DNA from: Nanobdellota archaeon
GTDB taxonomy: Archaea > Nanobdellota > Nanobdellia > CSSed11-243R1
NCBI GenBank assembly: GCA_021163365.1
Contig: JAGGWW010000007.1
Span: 13,929 to 77,928 of the forward strand
DNA: 64,000 bases
Direction of reading: 5' to 3'
The notes under the pieces are model-generated. The model ran no database searches. It was not told the DNA's origin and saw only the letters and a program-made list of their open reading frames with translations. Position 1 is the first letter of the stretch, and each line of letters starts with the position of its first letter. Positions 40,790 to 51,431 of the stretch are shown one piece after another. The translations under genes and the position numbers were made by a program.

Positions 40790-41989
40790 ATGGATTTTGA
40801 AGAATATTTCAGAAAAACAATAGATTTTGTAATCAAAGAACAAAAAGCACAAGGAATATGGAGCAAAAGAATCAAACACAATGAGCCAAGAGAACTTTTT
40901 AGAAGGATTGTACCAACAAAAGAAGCTGTTGAAACATTAATATATACTGGTGCTTATGGAAATTCCAAAGTAATTAAAGCTGGAATTAAAAACATACTTG
41001 ATTATGAACTTGAAGAGGCAGACCCATTAGAACTTTGGGCAACGAAGCTAAGGATTGCGGAAATTGCTAATAATAAAGAAATTATAAAAGAAATCTCAAA
41101 ATGGCTTAGAAATAAAAACATCCTAAGCACACGATTGCCCATGTTGTTTTCTATGATGTTATCAGAAGCAATAGGTGAAAACATAGACTTAATAAAAAAG
41201 TTAAAAAAAGCAAGAGCAAGAGATGGCAAAGGATGGGGAAGAATTGTTAAGGATTCTAAATCGTACATTACATTTACATCAAACGCTGTAATAGCATTGA
41301 TACTTGCTGGAGAAAATCCAAATGAAACATATCTTCAAAAAGCAAGAATATTTATTGAAAAATCTCAAAATAAAAATGGGAGCTGGAATTCAAGCCCAGA
41401 AACACTTACTAAACCAACAACATATGCAACAGCATTGGCTGTTCAAGCACTAATGCTTCTTTCAAAGAATCCATTTAACAAAGCAGTAAATAACGGAATA
41501 TCCTATTTATTAAAAACAGCACATAAAAAAGGAGGCTGGCCACTTATTAAAAATGAAGAACCCGAGATATATACAACAATGTATGCTGTGAAGACATTGA
41601 GATTCTATAATTATTTAAAAGAAAACAATGAAGAATATTTATCAAAGTTTCTAACACCTCAACAGCTAAGCTGCTATTTGTTTAAAAAATTCACATTCGA
41701 TTATCCAAAGGAAAAATTGATAGATATTTGCATTAAAGACCTTCTTTCATCAAAAGCTATTGCTGCAACACCTTCTGCAATTAAAAGGAGAAGAGACATA
41801 ATAAAAATTCTAATGAAACACACACTTGATGTTGCTGGCATAATAGATAAGTTAAATCAAATGGGATATCACCTAAATAAAAAATCTCACATGACTCAAA
41901 TAAAGTTTGATGTTGAGCATTTAAGAGAAATGAACTTAGTTGATAGAATTAAAAATAGGTACTTCGTTGTTGTTGATTTAGGATTTTAA
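40790..41989 (+). CDS. Prenyltransferase/terpenoid-cyclase-like alpha-alpha-toroid repeat protein
   Basis: Repeated Q/GxW units (KAQGIW, GKGWGR, KNGSWN, KKGGWP) of the squalene-cyclase/prenyltransferase beta-subunit repeat type. Divergent from the long operon. Confidence 0.45.
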   Translation: MDFEEYFRKTIDFVIKEQKAQGIWSKRIKHNEPRELFRRIVPTKEAVETLIYTGAYGNSKVIKAGIKNILDYELEEADPLELWATKLRIAEIANNKEIIKEISKWLRNKNILSTRLPMLFSMMLSEAIGENIDLIKKLKKARARDGKGWGRIVKDSKSYITFTSNAVIALILAGENPNETYLQKARIFIEKSQNKNGSWNSSPETLTKPTTYATALAVQALMLLSKNPFNKAVNNGISYLLKTAHKKGGWPLIKNEEPEIYTTMYAVKTLRFYNYLKENNEEYLSKFLTPQQLSCYLFKKFTFDYPKEKLIDICIKDLLSSKAIAATPSAIKRRRDIIKILMKHTLDVAGIIDKLNQMGYHLNKKSHMTQIKFDVEHLREMNLVDRIKNRYFVVVDLGF

Positions 41990-47481: not shown

Positions 47482-48573
47482 ATGGGCAAGTTTGCAACAG
47501 CTGTTTCTATGATTGTTGGGACAGTCATAGGAGCGGGTGTTCTTGGAATACCTTATGCAATTTCAAAGTCAGGATTCATTCCTGGCATGATTACAATGGT
47601 GATTGTTGGAATCATGGTTACTATAATGACACTTTACATGGGTGAGGTTGTTTTAAGAACAAAAGGAGAAAAACAATTTACAGCACTTGCAAAAAAATAT
47701 TTGGGTGAAAAAGGAAAATGGCTTATGTTGTTGTTTATGATAATGGGTATATTTGGTGCTTTAATTGCGTATTTAGTTGGAATAGGAGAAACAATTGCTG
47801 ATTTAGTTGGAGGTAACAGTTTGCTCTTCTCTTTGATTTTTTTTGCTATTGCTGCTCCAATAACATTTAAAGGTTTAAAAGCAGTTTCAAAGGTTGAGCT
47901 AACTCTTGCTTCCTTGCTTGTTGCCATACTTTTCATAATCTGCTTGCACTTGCTTCCTCAAGTTAAGCTTTCAAATTTAACATATTTTAACTTAAAAAAC
48001 GCTTTTGTACCATATGGTGTTGTTTTATTTGCATGTCTTGGATATCAAGTAATACCAGAAGTTAAAAAAATTCTTACAAACAAAAAACAAATGTCAAAAG
48101 TAATAATCATAGCATTAAGTTTGTGCCTTGGGTTATATGCTTTTTTTGCATTTTCATTTGTTGGAACATATAACCAAGAAGTAAGAGAAATAGCAATTGA
48201 ATCACTTAGTGGAGTTTTCCATGTTTTGGGAACAATTGTTGCAGTTCTTGCAATGTCAACTGGTTTTCTGGCTTTAAGCATTGTACTAAAAGATGTTTTA
48301 CATTGGGATTTTGGTTTAAATGAAAAGGTTGCATGGGCGATTGTTTCTTTTTTACCACTTCTAGTAGTTTTAGTAGCAAAACCTGGATTTGTAACCTCCC
48401 TTGCTTTAACTGGAACATACGCTGGAGGATTAACTGGAATTTTAAGTGTGTTAATTGTAAAGGAAGCAAGAAAGAAAGGTGAAAGAAAGCCAGAATTTGT
48501 TGTTCCAGGAGGAAACTTACTTATCTATATCTTAATTGTTTTCTTTGTGCTTGGTATGATACTGCAATTTTAA
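47482..48573 (+). CDS. Amino-acid permease (aromatic/hydroxy amino-acid permease-like, about 11 TM)
   Basis: Polytopic. N-terminal VGTVIGAGVLGIPYAISKSGF is typical of the Trp/Tyr/Ser permease (HAAAP) family. Confidence 0.65.
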   Translation: MGKFATAVSMIVGTVIGAGVLGIPYAISKSGFIPGMITMVIVGIMVTIMTLYMGEVVLRTKGEKQFTALAKKYLGEKGKWLMLLFMIMGIFGALIAYLVGIGETIADLVGGNSLLFSLIFFAIAAPITFKGLKAVSKVELTLASLLVAILFIICLHLLPQVKLSNLTYFNLKNAFVPYGVVLFACLGYQVIPEVKKILTNKKQMSKVIIIALSLCLGLYAFFAFSFVGTYNQEVREIAIESLSGVFHVLGTIVAVLAMSTGFLALSIVLKDVLHWDFGLNEKVAWAIVSFLPLLVVLVAKPGFVTSLALTGTYAGGLTGILSVLIVKEARKKGERKPEFVVPGGNLLIYILIVFFVLGMILQF

Positions 48574-49048
48574 TACTATTCATAATATCTTTGTTTTCTT
48601 CTTCTTTTTTACCTGCAACATCTAAAAAAGGATGTTTGTCAAAATGAAGTCTAACAATGGTTTCTGCGCGCTCCATAACAGCGCTTAGCCGCATAAATTT
48701 ATCTAATTCATTCATTTCATTTAAAGAAAGTTTTTTATTTCTTTTTCTTGTTAATCTATCTACAAATTTTCTGCAAAGCTGCATATATTCATCAATATTT
48801 TTCATTGCAAGATTAACAATGCTGAACTGTTCGTCTTCTATTTTATCAATTAATGAAATTGCTTCTTCATAATTTAACTCCTCTTCTCCGCCCAGCATGT
48901 AATAAATGACATAGGCATGAAAAAAGTGAGCTCGCGCAATTCCAAAGTAATATTCTCTTTTTCTTGTTTGTTTAATTTTTTCCAAATAAGCTTTTACATT
49001 TTCTTTTGTTGGATTATCAAGTATTTCGCAAATTGTTTCTAATTCCAT
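48521..49048 (-). CDS. Hypothetical protein (about 176 aa from internal start MELETICEILDNP)
   Basis: The track ORF extends to 49342 and overlaps the next plus-strand gene, so the internal Met at 49046-49048 is the more plausible start. The C-terminal 53 nt overlap the convergent permease gene. Confidence 0.4.
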   Translation of the reverse strand: MELETICEILDNPTKENVKAYLEKIKQTRKREYYFGIARAHFFHAYVIYYMLGGEEELNYEEAISLIDKIEDEQFSIVNLAMKNIDEYMQLCRKFVDRLTRKRNKKLSLNEMNELDKFMRLSAVMERAETIVRLHFDKHPFLDVAGKKEEENKDIMNSIKIAVSYQAQRKQLRYR

Positions 49049-49151
49049 ATTTTTTCCTTTACAATTTAGATTTATAAAAGTTACTTTGTGGTGGTGAAAA
49101 ATTACTAAGCTTTTATAAAATATTAAAAAAGATAAAAGGCATGCAATAAGC

Positions 49152-51035
49152 ATGGCTCTTAAAAGAAAATTGACATTTGGCATATTGCTTTTTTTAACAA
49201 TAAACGCATTAATAGGAACAGGTATATTCTTTACACCAGGAATAGCAGCTTCTATTGCTGGTGTTAATTCAATTTTTTCATGGATTCTTGCTATAATTGT
49301 TTCAATTTTAATTGCACTTGTTTTTGCAGAACTTTCAAGCATATATCCAAAAGCAGGTGGTGTTTACGAATATTCAAAAAGAGCATTTGGAAATGAAGTT
49401 GGATTCTTTGTTGGTTGGATTTCTTGGGTAGTCTCAAACATAGTTATTGCAATGCTTGTTGTTGGAAGCCTTGATTATTTAAAGATATTGTTTCCGATTT
49501 CAGATACAATAAAACTTGTTTCTGCAATAAGCTTTGTTGTTTTCTTTAATTACGTAAGCTTTAGGGGGATAGAAATAAGCGGAAAAATCCTTCTTGCATT
49601 TTCCTTAATAACATTGTCTGTTCTTTGCTTAATTGGTTTTTCAGGAAGCACAGCAATTAACTTAAAAAACTTTAGTGATATAAGTTTAACGAAATCTACG
49701 GTTTTTCCAATTGTTATTGCAATGTTTTATGCAATTGAAACATTTTTTGGATGGGAGTCTATTTCTTTTCTTTCTGAAGAAACAAAGAACCCAAAGAAGA
49801 ACATACCAAAAGCATTGTTTATAGGAACTTTAGTAATTTCTGCGCTTGTCATGTTTGTAATTTTTGTCTCATTAGCATCTGTTCCAGCAAAAGAGCTTGG
49901 CTCATCTAGTTATCCATTACTGCTTGTTGCATCAAAGTTTTTCTCAGAAAAAGTTGTTAGATTAATATCAATACTTGTTGTTTTAACAATAATGGGTGGT
50001 GCTGCCTCATGGATTATAACAACACCAAGACTTATTTATGCAATGTCAAGAGATAGGGTTCTTCCAGAAAGCTTTAGCAAGGTTCATAAAAAATACAATA
50101 CTCCTTACACAGCTATAATCCTGCAAGCTTGCATAACTGTTCTTGTAATTGCTTCTGGTTCATATAAGTTTTTACTTGATGTTGCATTACCTTTAGCAAT
50201 TGTTATGTATTCAATTGTTATATTAAGTGTTGTAAAATTAAGAATAGAAAAACCAAAACTTAAGAGAACATTTAAGGTTCCTTTTGGAAAAATTTTGCCA
50301 ATTTTATTAGTTGCTTTGTTGATGGGTGCTTTAATTATTTCTTCAACCCTTCATAGCATTATATTAGGATTTATTCTTGTTTTGCTTGGAATACCCTTAT
50401 ATATTATTGCAAGCTTAGGTTATCATGAAAAGATAATAAAATATTTCTCTGACATTTTTGCAGAAATACATTATTGGGCAAACAGATTCATGATTGAAAA
50501 GGACATAGTGGAGCACATACTTAATTATTTAAGTGATGTAACAGTTGAGCGTGTTCTTGACTTAGGATGTGGTGTTGGCGTAGTAACTAACAGGATTGCA
50601 AGAGAGGTTATTCCACCAAATGGAAAAGTTTATGGTGTTGACTTCTCAAAAAGAGCATTAAGAATTGCTAAGAAAATTGCAGAATCAAGGGATATAAAAA
50701 ATGTTGAGTTTATTCATGAAAACTTTTACAATTTAAGTAAAAACAAAAAAGTGAATAAAAAGCTTAGAAAATTAGATGCTGTTGTTGGTGTCGGAGTTCT
50801 TGGATACATTGATAGACTTGAATTCATCCTTAAAGAGATTAGAAAAAGACTAAGAAAAGGTGGAAAGATTTATTTTGTTGATTATGACTATCCTGGACAT
50901 TTTCTTGACAAGCCACTTATCGAAGATAATAGAAAAATTCATGATTTATTTGAAAAATTTGGATTTAAAATAAGGGTTTGGAGACAAAAGAAATTGTTCT
51001 GGACTTATGTTCATATCTACGGGGAAAAGATTTAA
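49152..51035 (+). CDS. APC-family amino-acid/polyamine transporter fused to a C-terminal class-I SAM-dependent methyltransferase domain
   Basis: Residues 1-about 430: APC permease (…FAELSSIYPKAGGVYEYSKRAFG…, 12 TM). Residues about 450-627: VLDLGCGVGVVTNRIA (motif I), GVDFSKRAL (post-I), LDAVVGVGVL (motif II). Confidence 0.7.
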   Translation: MALKRKLTFGILLFLTINALIGTGIFFTPGIAASIAGVNSIFSWILAIIVSILIALVFAELSSIYPKAGGVYEYSKRAFGNEVGFFVGWISWVVSNIVIAMLVVGSLDYLKILFPISDTIKLVSAISFVVFFNYVSFRGIEISGKILLAFSLITLSVLCLIGFSGSTAINLKNFSDISLTKSTVFPIVIAMFYAIETFFGWESISFLSEETKNPKKNIPKALFIGTLVISALVMFVIFVSLASVPAKELGSSSYPLLLVASKFFSEKVVRLISILVVLTIMGGAASWIITTPRLIYAMSRDRVLPESFSKVHKKYNTPYTAIILQACITVLVIASGSYKFLLDVALPLAIVMYSIVILSVVKLRIEKPKLKRTFKVPFGKILPILLVALLMGALIISSTLHSIILGFILVLLGIPLYIIASLGYHEKIIKYFSDIFAEIHYWANRFMIEKDIVEHILNYLSDVTVERVLDLGCGVGVVTNRIAREVIPPNGKVYGVDFSKRALRIAKKIAESRDIKNVEFIHENFYNLSKNKKVNKKLRKLDAVVGVGVLGYIDRLEFILKEIRKRLRKGGKIYFVDYDYPGHFLDKPLIEDNRKIHDLFEKFGFKIRVWRQKKLFWTYVHIYGEKI

Positions 51036-51062: not shown

Positions 51063-51431
51063 ATGAATGAAACAGAAGTTAAAAAGATTACAGTAAGATT
51101 AGAAGGTGAGCCACTAAAAGCATTAGAGGATTTGCTTCGCATGAAAGACCCATTAATTGGAAAAAACCCAAGCGAAATTGTAAGAAATGCCTTAATTTTC
51201 TTTAGAAGAGTTCCATATACACCAGATCTGATCTTGCTTGCTGAAAAAGGACTTTATGTTAAAACACATGATAGTGTAACAAATGTTAACATACCAAGGG
51301 TTGTTATGGAAAGAGCAATATATGATGTTGCACATGGAAGATTTACTCGCGTTGATGAAGCAATAAAATATTACTTAATAAAAGGCTCTGAGAAAGACTA
51401 TGCACAAACAAGATTAGACGATTATTCGTAA
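51063..51431 (+). CDS. Hypothetical protein (122 aa)
   Basis: ORF only. Confidence 0.4.
   Translation: MNETEVKKITVRLEGEPLKALEDLLRMKDPLIGKNPSEIVRNALIFFRRVPYTPDLILLAEKGLYVKTHDSVTNVNIPRVVMERAIYDVAHGRFTRVDEAIKYYLIKGSEKDYAQTRLDDYS

What the first reader, a model, noticed from the sequence alone, without database searches (positions are those of the whole stretch)
49152..51035. Fusion of an APC-family permease to a class-I SAM-dependent methyltransferase
Residues 1-about 430 form a 12-TM amino-acid/polyamine transporter. The cytoplasmic C-terminus is a complete methyltransferase fold (VLDLGCGVGVV…GVDFS…LDAVVG). Transporter-methyltransferase fusions are uncommon. The fusion could couple uptake of a substrate to its immediate methylation, or act as a methylation-dependent sensor.
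Basis: seen in the sequence. Interest (0 to 1): 0.55.

Follow-up and report, generated by a model that had tools for sequence, protein, structure and literature searches.

The report
Amino-acid transporter fused to methyltransferase domain
A real gene, conserved across the tiny symbiotic DPANN archaea, joins a 12-helix amino-acid transporter to a cytoplasmic SAM-type methyltransferase domain; nobody has characterised this combination, and its function is still unknown.

Summary
ORF 49152-51035 (+) encodes 627 aa: a complete 12-TM APC permease (residues 1-425), three linker helices (426-460) and a seven-strand class-I methyltransferase domain (461-627) with canonical SAM motifs. It is not an assembly artefact. 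The identical protein lies on three separately assembled contigs. Full-length orthologues occur in at least 80 species-representative DPANN genomes (Woese-/Pace-/Nanoarchaeota, Undinarchaeota, Aenigmatarchaeota). Both halves are under purifying selection. Topology places the MTase in the cytoplasm. The MTase domain was never found as a verified stand-alone protein, matches no named MTase family, and resembles generic small-molecule MTases (UbiG, ArsM, Coq5). The permease is closest to BasC/LATs but lacks their conserved TM5 Lys and TM7 Tyr. One clade of the family has lost the Gly-rich SAM loop, often with the beta2 acidic residue too, yet keeps the domain and a conserved set of other residues. 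So part of the domain's role does not depend on canonical SAM binding. No conserved operon, riboswitch or paper was found. Best guess (about 0.4): methylation of a transported solute at the transporter's cytoplasmic mouth. Main rival (about 0.3): a SAM/ligand-sensing gate. This is an uncharacterised variant of known parts, of moderate interest.

The parts
49152..51035 (+). Whole fusion gene, 627 codons plus stop (51033-51035)
   Evidence: ORF list. Identical protein on 3 public contigs. Orthologues at 37-99% identity over 100% of the length.
49152..50426 (+). APC-fold permease core, residues 1-425, 12 TM helices, N- and C-termini cytoplasmic
   Evidence: Pfam PF13520. phmmer to BasC 6f2g covers query 13-421 and chain 10-428 of 435-444. 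Foldseek gives BasC a target TM-score of 0.84. AF2 helices. Positive-inside count is K+R 19 inside and 4 outside.
49203..49223 (+). TM1 unwound substrate-site motif N18-A-L-I-G22-T23-G24
   Evidence: Aligns with BasC G15..G19-A20-G21, whose backbone binds the substrate alpha-carboxylate (PMC6472337). N18 is kept in 166/182, G22 in 178/182, T23 in 168/182 and G24 in 176/182 members.
49737..49757 (+). TM6 unwound substrate-site motif E196-T-F-F-G-W-E202, the family signature
   Evidence: Aligns with BasC F199-A200-Y201-D202-G203-W204-I205. Each position is kept in 170-182 of 182 members. It served as the scan pattern ETFFGWE[TS] that recovered 368 loci.
50427..50531 (+). Linker of three helices (residues 426-460) directly after TM12; it is the N-terminal cap of the MTase domain
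   Evidence: AF2 helices 426-435, 437-447 and 450-460, with pLDDT 72-88.
50532..51032 (+). Class-I (Rossmann, seven-strand) SAM-dependent methyltransferase domain, residues 461-627
   Evidence: Pfam Methyltransf_31/12/25/23/11. Domain model pLDDT 91.2, pTM 0.88. Foldseek to UbiG, ArsM, NovO, Coq5 and PEAMT at E about 1e-12, TM 0.65-0.73, 13-22% identity.
50553..50585 (+). Motif I, VLDLGCGVGVV (D470-x-G472-x-G474-x-G476), the Gly-rich SAM loop after beta1
   Evidence: Translation. Canonical in 12/12 members of the query's clade and in 59/182 of the family. Altered or lost in other clades.
50628..50648 (+). Motif II, VYGVDFS, with acidic D497 at the end of beta2 (the ribose-hydroxyl ligand in class-I MTases)
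   Evidence: Translation. D at this position in 80% of the family and in all 59 fully canonical members (an acidic residue here was part of that definition). His in 67% of the degenerate subset.
50772..50807 (+). Beta4 and the following loop, LDAVVGVGVLGY (G548, Y552 conserved)
   Evidence: G548 is kept in 95% and Y552 in 84% of the family, and in 95% and 81% of the SAM-motif-degenerate subset.
50868..50888 (+). Beta5 C-terminal end, IYFVDYD (F575, D577, Y578)
   Evidence: F575 97%, D577 73% and Y578 88% family-wide; 95%, 90% and 95% in the degenerate subset. The C-terminal ends of the strands form the ligand site in this fold (PMC10883374 states this for class-I MTases).
51000..51032 (+). Family-specific C-terminal strand WTYVHIYGEKI (W617, G624, K626 nearly invariant)
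   Evidence: W617 90%, G624 99%, K626 98%. Generic MTases do not align to this part; they match only domain residues about 25-150.

Best explanation
SHOWN: the gene encodes one polypeptide in which a complete, strongly constrained 12-TM APC amino-acid transporter is followed, after TM12 and a three-helix cap, by a cytoplasmic class-I SAM-type methyltransferase domain of the small-molecule-MTase kind. The fusion is a conserved, selected, DPANN-wide gene family. In the window's clade every SAM-binding motif is canonical. INFERRED (my commitment): in this clade the domain binds SAM and methylates a small solute that the attached permease carries, most likely an alpha-amino acid or a related amine. 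It would act at the cytoplasmic mouth of the transporter. Either the imported substrate is methylated on arrival (metabolic trapping or direct conversion), or a cytoplasmic compound is methylated and then exported. The residues conserved family-wide at the C-terminal ends of beta4 and beta5 (Y552, D577, Y578) would form the acceptor-binding site. Those residues persist even where the SAM loop has decayed, so the domain probably also has a ligand-binding or gating contribution that does not need methyl transfer. The confidence of 0.4 refers to the mechanism; the architecture itself is above 0.95.
For: Architecture. Not an artefact: the identical protein is on 3 contigs, 120 listed orthologues are almost all 618-663 aa with both Pfam domains, and the 80 shown of 368 matched loci in species-representative genomes all match query residues about 1-626. 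Selection: dN/dS against the 99% relative is 0.017 for the permease and 0.106 for the MTase; pN against the 80% relative is 0.137 and 0.106. In the query's clade MTase identity is 0.77, above the permease's 0.70. Cytoplasmic location, where SAM is available: positive-inside count 19 against 4, and BasC homology runs to the end of TM12. Functional transporter site: TM1 N-x3-G-T-G and TM6 ETFFGWE are nearly invariant and align with the BasC residues that bind the substrate's alpha-carboxylate and alpha-amino groups (PMC6472337). The fold class is small-molecule MTases (UbiG, ArsM, NovO/CouO, Coq5, PEAMT), not RNA, DNA or protein MTases, at the top of the list. The two halves were never found verifiably apart: the apparent split forms are a contig-edge fragment and a single in-frame TAG. 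About 50 of the 89 best MTase-domain relatives are 550-860 aa proteins that match at their C-terminal end. The pTM of 0.83 for the two-domain model suggests a defined relative arrangement of the domains (inference).
Against: No substrate, product or SAM binding has been measured. No conserved neighbouring gene points to a pathway. No named MTase family reaches its cutoff (best is UbiG at 52.6 bits against 103). 21 of 182 members, all in one permease-defined clade, have lost the Gly-rich loop, and 14 of them also the beta2 acid, yet they keep the full-length domain. Catalysis therefore cannot be the only selected function of the family. The most conserved MTase residues lie outside the SAM site. 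I could not inspect model coordinates, so I do not know whether the active site faces the transport vestibule.
Confidence: 0.4

Rival explanations
1. Regulatory sensor (transceptor-like gate). The MTase-fold domain does not act as an enzyme in vivo. It binds SAM/SAH (or, in the degenerate clade, another ligand), and through the cap helices attached to TM12 it opens or closes the permease. Amino-acid uptake (for example methionine) would then follow the cell's methyl-donor status.
For: The domain is retained with conserved non-SAM residues in a clade that lost the SAM motifs. No verified stand-alone homologue and no enzyme-family membership were found. APC-fold transporters with cytoplasmic alpha/beta C-terminal domains (NKCC1, KCC3, NCC, and KimA solved with c-di-AMP bound) appear among the structural matches of the full-length model. 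SAMTOR is a documented SAM sensor built on a class-I MTase domain, and its GxGxG is altered to GSCF/YN although it still binds SAM (PMC10883374). The linker is the MTase cap and is joined directly to TM12.
Against: In the query's clade every catalytic-core motif is canonical and the domain is more conserved than the permease, which is more than a sensor would need. Putative acceptor-side residues (Y552, D577, Y578) are conserved. Sensors often lose these.
Confidence: 0.3
2. Membrane-tethered methyltransferase with a target unrelated to the transported solute (a lipid head group, another protein, or the permease itself). The permease would act mainly as an anchor, or work independently.
For: The top structural match, UbiG, and several others act on lipophilic substrates. 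The domain is held at the membrane surface by a short linker.
Against: The transporter's substrate-site motifs are nearly invariant, so it is not a mere anchor. A 12-TM transporter is an expensive anchor. The fusion is strictly maintained, with no verified separate forms.
Confidence: 0.12
3. Purely structural pseudo-enzyme. The domain serves for folding, oligomerisation or stability in all clades, and its SAM motifs in the query's clade are an unselected remnant.
For: Degenerate clade. Family-wide conservation is concentrated in the beta5-beta7 region and not in the SAM loop.
Against: Motif I plus the beta2 acid are 12/12 canonical in the query's clade. 117 of 182 members keep a G-x-[GS]-x-G loop with both acidic residues. 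dN/dS is 0.1.
Confidence: 0.1
4. Artefact: a missed stop, a frameshift or a chimeric assembly joins two separate genes.
For: One relative's contig (L081) has an in-frame TAG exactly between the domains. One MAG (L004) appears frameshifted near the N-terminus.
Against: The identical 627-aa ORF is on three separately assembled contigs from different size classes. There are more than 100 full-length orthologues from many samples and 80 genomes. In L081 the MTase continues in the same frame after the TAG, which is a point change and not a gene boundary.
Confidence: 0.01

Closest known systems
BasC and the SLC7 L-type amino-acid transporters (LAT1/2, Asc-1, xCT)
   Same: Best sequence and structure match for residues 1-425 (phmmer E 1e-41/6e-42; Foldseek target TM-score 0.83-0.84, 25% identity). 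Same 12-TM APC fold with unwound TM1 and TM6. The TM1 G-x-G element that binds the alpha-carboxylate is conserved (PMC6472337).
   Different: The two residues reported as fully conserved in LATs are absent. The column aligned to TM5 Lys154 is A/S/G, and the TM7 Tyr236 column is A/S/V/C. TM6a has an invariant Glu (E196) where BasC has the gating Phe199. BasC ends a few residues after TM12, while this protein continues for 200 residues.
ApcT / TC 2.A.3.6-type archaeal-bacterial amino-acid transporters (NCBIfam TIGR00909)
   Same: Best NCBIfam model (E 8e-65 over residues 3-419). ApcT (MJ0609) is a structural match.
   Different: The score of 219 bits is far below the family cutoff of 557. None of the transporter structures matched carries an MTase domain.
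Generic small-molecule class-I SAM methyltransferases (UbiG, UbiE/Coq5, ArsM, NovO/CouO, phosphoethanolamine N-MT)
   Same: Same seven-strand fold and canonical motifs I and II.
   Different: Only 13-22% identity. All named NCBIfam models score below cutoff. The family has its own C-terminal beta5-beta7 signature (F575, Y578, F600, G604-F605, W617, G624, K626), which generic MTases do not match. It is always fused to the permease.
APC-fold transporters with a cytoplasmic C-terminal regulatory domain (KimA with c-di-AMP; cation-chloride cotransporters NKCC1/KCC/NCC)
   Same: Overall layout of an APC core followed by a cytoplasmic alpha/beta domain. They are recovered by Foldseek with alignments of about 580-750 columns.
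   Different: High rmsd (13-15 A) and a different C-terminal fold and ligand. None is a methyltransferase.
SAMTOR (SAM sensor with a class-I MTase domain)
   Same: It shows that an MTase fold can serve as a nutrient-status sensor, and that an altered GxGxG (GSCF/YN) can still bind SAM (PMC10883374).
   Different: It is a soluble eukaryotic protein in mTORC1 signalling. No sequence relationship was detected or tested here. This is an analogy only.
Transporter-enzyme fusions such as Acr3-ArsC and MprF (from my own knowledge, not checked here)
   Same: A cytoplasmic enzyme domain converts a compound that the fused membrane domain then moves, or the reverse.
   Different: Unrelated folds and chemistry. 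None involves an APC permease or a methyltransferase.

Membership tests
APC superfamily amino-acid permease (Pfam AA_permease_2, PF13520) | Profile match above the curated gathering score | tested here: met
   200.2 bits against a cutoff of 27, residues 12-403.
APC superfamily amino-acid permease (Pfam AA_permease_2, PF13520) | 12-TM fold with discontinuous TM1 and TM6 | tested here: met
   The AF2 model has helix breaks at 22-27 and 199-200. Foldseek target TM-score is 0.81-0.85 to BasC, GkApcT and AdiC. This rests on a predicted, not a solved, structure.
LAT subfamily (SLC7 light chains / BasC) | TM5 lysine (BasC Lys154), fully conserved among LATs (PMC6472337) | tested here: not met
   The aligned column (query S151) is A80/S74/G24 of 182. 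A nearby Lys (K145) occurs in only 82/182. A 3-residue indel lies close by, so the alignment there is not certain.
LAT subfamily (SLC7 light chains / BasC) | TM7 tyrosine (BasC Tyr236), fully conserved among LATs (PMC6472337) | tested here: not met
   The aligned column (query V233) is A77/S46/V24/C22 of 182.
LAT subfamily (SLC7 light chains / BasC) | Obligatory amino-acid exchange activity | not testable with these tools
   Needs proteoliposome assays.
NCBIfam TIGR00909 (2A0306 amino acid transporter) | Score at or above the curated cutoff | tested here: not met
   219.4 bits against 556.8.
Class-I SAM-dependent methyltransferase fold | Seven-strand Rossmann-like sheet | tested here: met
   The domain model (pLDDT 91.2) has 7 strands alternating with helices. 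More than 1000 PDB MTase matches, top E 3e-13, probability 1.0.
Class-I SAM-dependent methyltransferase fold | GxGxG loop after beta1 (the hallmark according to PMC10883374) | tested here: met
   D470-L-G-C-G-V-G476. 12/12 in the query's clade, but only 59/182 fully canonical family-wide, and 21/182 have lost it.
Class-I SAM-dependent methyltransferase fold | Acidic residue at the end of beta2 | tested here: met
   D497 is present. D in 80% of the family; His in 67% of the degenerate subset.
Class-I SAM-dependent methyltransferase fold | SAM binding and methyl transfer | not testable with these tools
   Needs ITC/DSF and labelled-SAM assays.
Named small-molecule MTases (UbiG, UbiE/MenG, ArsM, BioC, PrmC) | Equivalog model score at or above the cutoff | tested here: not met
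   UbiG 52.6 against 103; ArsM 46 against 263; MenG 45.6 against 235; PrmC 48.4 against 199.

The most novel reading that the evidence does not exclude
A DPANN-wide class of amino-acid transporters in which methyl-donor chemistry is physically built into the carrier. One form would be 'group translocation by methylation', where the solute is methylated as it leaves the permease, a transport-coupled modification not known for APC carriers. The other would be a SAM-gated transceptor that links nutrient scavenging from the host to the symbiont's methyl-donor status. A pseudo-enzyme clade would record the shift from catalysis to pure regulation.
Probability: 0.25. Interest if true: 0.75.

Novelty: new variant of a known kind. 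Interest (0 to 1): 0.45.

Why it matters
DPANN archaea have tiny genomes and must take most building blocks from hosts, so each conserved transporter is a clue to how they live. This one is present in at least 80 species-level lineages across at least three DPANN phyla. The sources that name it call it only 'amino acid permease', or give generic transporter/methylase labels. It carries an enzyme-type domain whose canonical and decayed versions are both retained. If the domain methylates cargo, that would be a new way of coupling transport to metabolism. If it senses SAM, it would be a prokaryotic, membrane-integrated counterpart of eukaryotic SAM sensing. Either way it is a compact, single-gene system that can be expressed and tested.

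Tried and rejected
1. Missed stop or chimera: rejected.
2. Natural split versions: P0122 (181 aa, MTase only) is a contig-edge fragment whose frame is open to the contig end. P0022 (431 aa, permease only) has one in-frame TAG at the Tyr433-equivalent position, and the MTase continues in frame. Other short hits were not checked one by one.
3. Conserved operon: ORFs within 6 kb in 80 loci were clustered. The commonest neighbour is present in only 16 of 81 loci, and the neighbours look like housekeeping genes by inspection (ribosomal proteins, a class-I aminoacyl-tRNA synthetase, a release factor). Only the closest relatives share the window's flanking genes: the MPG glycosylase in L001 and L004, and RLI plus the GTPase in L001-L004.
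4. Riboswitch or other RNA element: Rfam at gathering threshold gives 0 hits in the whole window.
5. SAM-cycle genes nearby: ten larger ORFs of the window were scanned and none is a SAM-cycle enzyme.
6. My guess that the extra ~200-aa C-terminal extension in the 830-860 aa variants is a histidine-kinase ATPase: not supported. Pfam gives only DUF3108 in one of them and nothing in the other three.
7. Canonical plus degenerate paralogue pairs in one genome: none seen. The one tandem pair (L067) is canonical in both copies.
8. P0121, the second-best hit of the exhaustive search, is a 1535-aa repeat artefact of 'VLELGCGVG' units and is irrelevant.
10. Literature: four searches aimed at the fusion found no description of an APC-MTase fusion. 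The archaeal fusion survey PMC11237513 does not mention it in its main text (its supplementary tables were not searched).
Full report
OBSERVATION. The window has one uninterrupted ORF at 49152-51035 (+), 627 aa. Pfam places an amino-acid permease (AA_permease_2, E 7e-59, residues 12-403) in front of a class-I methyltransferase domain (Methyltransf_31, E 1e-20, also _12/_25/_23/_11 and Ubie, residues about 453-598). The window is about 31% G+C, so a 627-codon open frame is not a chance event.

NOT AN ARTEFACT. The identical protein was called on three separately assembled public contigs, with the same neighbours. A word-indexed search of 5.8 billion proteins returned 1414 hits. The best 120 are almost all 618-663 aa, cover 100% of the query at 37-99% identity, and carry both Pfam domains. 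A scan of one genome per GTDB species found 368 loci encoding a relative. All 80 shown match query residues about 1-626 in one piece. By record title they are Woese-, Pace- and Nanoarchaeota, Undinarchaeota and Aenigmatarchaeota. A few titles read 'uncultured Methanosarcinales' or 'uncultured bacterium', and one protein is labelled Thermoproteota; I could not check these and suspect they are labelling or binning problems. Two apparent split forms dissolved on inspection. P0122 (MTase only) is a fragment at a contig edge. P0022 (permease only) has a single in-frame TAG where the query has Tyr433, and the MTase continues in the same frame.

SELECTION. Against a 99%-identical relative, the permease has 17 synonymous and 1 non-synonymous differences (dN/dS 0.017), and the linker plus MTase has 11 and 5 (0.106). 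The counts are small. Against an 80% relative, pN is 0.137 for the permease and 0.106 for the MTase, with synonymous sites saturated. Within the query's clade (12 non-redundant members), mean identity is 0.77 in the MTase domain and 0.70 in the permease.

ANATOMY AND TOPOLOGY. AlphaFold2 with a 61-sequence alignment gives a confident full-length model (pLDDT 88.6, pTM 0.83). It has 12 TM helices with TM1 and TM6 broken, three helices at 426-460, then strands at 467-471, 492-497, 518-522, 541-547, 567-579, 605-613 and 618-626. The domain-only model is better still (pLDDT 91.2, pTM 0.88). The phmmer alignment to BasC runs from query 13 to 421 and ends at residue 428 of the 435-residue chain shown. 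The MTase is therefore a pure C-terminal addition to a complete transporter. Loops on the N/C-terminal side hold 19 Lys+Arg, against 4 on the other side. Together with the known inside location of both termini in this fold, this puts the MTase in the cytoplasm, where SAM is available. A pTM of 0.83 for a 430+200-residue protein suggests a defined relative placement of the domains. I could not read the coordinates or PAE, so this is an inference.

THE TRANSPORTER HALF. The closest solved structures are BasC, LAT1, Asc-1, GkApcT, AdiC and ApcT (target TM-score 0.8-0.85, 18-25% identity). In BasC the substrate alpha-carboxylate binds the TM1 backbone at Ala20-Gly21, and the alpha-amino group binds carbonyls of Val17, Phe199, Ala200 and Asp202 (PMC6472337). 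The aligned segments here, N18-x3-G22-T23-G24 and E196-T-F-F-G-W-E202, are nearly invariant in 182 non-redundant family members. This is a working carrier site and not a degenerate anchor. It is not a LAT in the strict sense, though. The columns aligned to Lys154 and Tyr236, both 'fully conserved among LATs', are A/S/G and A/S/V/C. The best NCBIfam model (TIGR00909) scores 219 bits against a cutoff of 557. An invariant Glu (E196) replaces BasC's gating Phe199. That might point to a cationic group on the substrate, but this is speculation.

THE METHYLTRANSFERASE HALF. Foldseek against the PDB gives more than 1000 MTase matches. The top ones are small-molecule enzymes (UbiG, SpnF, ArsM, NovO/CouO, Coq5, phosphoethanolamine N-MT) at TM 0.65-0.73 and 13-22% identity, and no single one stands out. 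No named NCBIfam MTase family reaches its cutoff. An exhaustive phmmer of residues 430-627 against 1.84 billion cluster representatives found 2643 hits at E<=1e-3 but only 89 at E<=1e-10. About 50 of those 89 are 550-860 aa proteins that match at their C-terminal end, that is, other fusions. Most of the rest are short entries that align right through to the domain's last residue, like the fragment P0122. Generic 200-300 aa MTases appear only at weaker scores and match only the SAM-binding core, domain residues about 25-150. The domain is thus a family of its own, and I found no verified instance of it outside the fusion.

A CLADE THAT LOST THE SAM SITE. I clustered 182 non-redundant members on the permease domain alone and scored the SAM site. 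59 are fully canonical ([DE]-x-G-x-G-x-G plus an acidic beta2 residue). 58 have G-x-S-x-G with both acidic residues. 21 have lost the Gly-rich loop (for example 'NFGTDVSKF'), and 14 of these also lost the beta2 acid, usually to His. All but one of the 21 lie in one permease-defined clade, where MTase identity is 0.47 against 0.68 for the permease. That is relaxed constraint, not loss of constraint, and the domain stays full length. Several positions remain conserved family-wide and in the degenerate subset. The figures are percent in all members and then in the degenerate subset: G491 97/95, S499 92/86, G548 95/95, Y552 84/81, F575 97/95, D577 73/90, Y578 88/95, F600 99/95, G604 94/100, F605 92/100, W617 90/100, G624 99/100, K626 98/95. 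Y552 and D577/Y578 sit at the C-terminal ends of beta4 and beta5, the side of the sheet that forms the ligand site in this fold (PMC10883374). I therefore read them as acceptor-site or interface residues, which is an inference. One caveat: SAMTOR binds SAM with its GxGxG changed to GSCF/YN (PMC10883374), so motif decay alone does not prove loss of SAM binding.

CONTEXT. There is no conserved partner gene. Among 80 related loci the commonest neighbour occurs in 16, and the neighbours look like housekeeping genes. Only the closest relatives share the window's flanks: the MPG glycosylase upstream (L001 and L004), and the RLI/ABCE1-like gene and a GTPase downstream (L001-L004). Rfam finds nothing in the window, and no SAM-cycle enzyme was seen among ten larger ORFs. 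Four literature searches aimed at the fusion and one archaeal fusion survey gave no description of this architecture. The public sources that name it use 'amino acid permease', or in JGI generic labels such as 'amino acid transporter/ubiquinone/menaquinone biosynthesis C-methylase UbiE'.

MECHANISM. Shown: one polypeptide, an intact carrier site, a cytoplasmic MTase fold, canonical SAM motifs in this clade, purifying selection and obligate fusion. My commitment (about 0.4): the domain binds SAM and methylates a small solute handled by the attached permease, at its cytoplasmic mouth, either import followed by methylation or methylation followed by export. The main rival (about 0.3) is a non-catalytic SAM/ligand sensor that gates the carrier through the cap helices joined to TM12. 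The degenerate clade, the absence of verified free-standing relatives, APC-fold precedents with cytoplasmic C-terminal domains (KimA, NKCC/KCC) and the SAMTOR precedent all favour it. Lesser rivals are a tethered MTase with an unrelated membrane-proximal target (about 0.12) and a purely structural pseudo-enzyme (about 0.1). An artefact is at most 0.01.

VERDICT. The functional idea is plausible but unproven, and the SAM-site-degenerate clade complicates it. This is an uncharacterised, widely conserved variant built from two well-known parts: a new variant of a known kind, of moderate interest (0.45).

Noticed in passing
window 47482-48573 (+): A second amino-acid transporter of a different APC branch (Trp_Tyr_perm, E 4e-38; Aa_trans; 363 aa) lies about 580 nt upstream of the fusion. 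In the related contig L081 a rotamase gene sits between the MPG glycosylase and the fusion gene instead.
   Followed up: partly
window 48521-49342 (-): This minus-strand ORF overlaps the first 190 nt of the fusion gene if read from its first ATG. The public gene call is 175 aa, which fits a start at Met99 (about 49048). It has no Pfam family above threshold (only a weak Imm6 hit, E 0.0012). It shares a 103-nt AT-rich divergent intergenic region with the fusion gene.
   Followed up: partly
window 51063-51431 (+): A 122-aa ORF starts 27 nt after the fusion's stop and overlaps the end of the RLI gene by 10 nt. It has no Pfam or NCBIfam hit. It is present in the 99%-identical relatives (L084, L085) but was not found next to the fusion in L001-L004.
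   Followed up: partly
L081 3085-3087 (contig of P0022): A single in-frame TAG lies exactly at the permease/MTase junction (the Tyr433-equivalent position), and the MTase domain continues in frame. It could be a sequencing error, a fresh pseudogene or read-through.
   Followed up: partly
L004 6001-7883 (JAJRVP010000013.1): The match to the fusion is 1883 nt long, which is not a multiple of 3. The N-terminal part shifts frame, and the NCBI protein call (P0011) is only 528 aa. This is probably a frameshift in that MAG.
   Followed up: no
proteins P0143, P0148, P0152, P0154 (827-858 aa): Some family members carry an extra ~200-aa domain after the MTase. P0143's extension hits DUF3108. The other three extensions look alike by eye and hit no Pfam family.
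   Followed up: partly
L067 2443-4362 and 4359-6257: An Aenigmatarchaeota genome has two full-length fusion genes in tandem, overlapping by 4 nt. Both have canonical SAM motifs.
   Followed up: no
window 40790-41989 (+): A 399-aa protein has prenyltransferase / squalene-hopene-cyclase-type repeats (E 2e-12). This is unexpected in a small DPANN-type genome.
   Followed up: no
window 1-64000: Rfam at gathering thresholds finds no RNA family at all (no tRNA, rRNA or riboswitch) in 64 kb.
   Followed up: no
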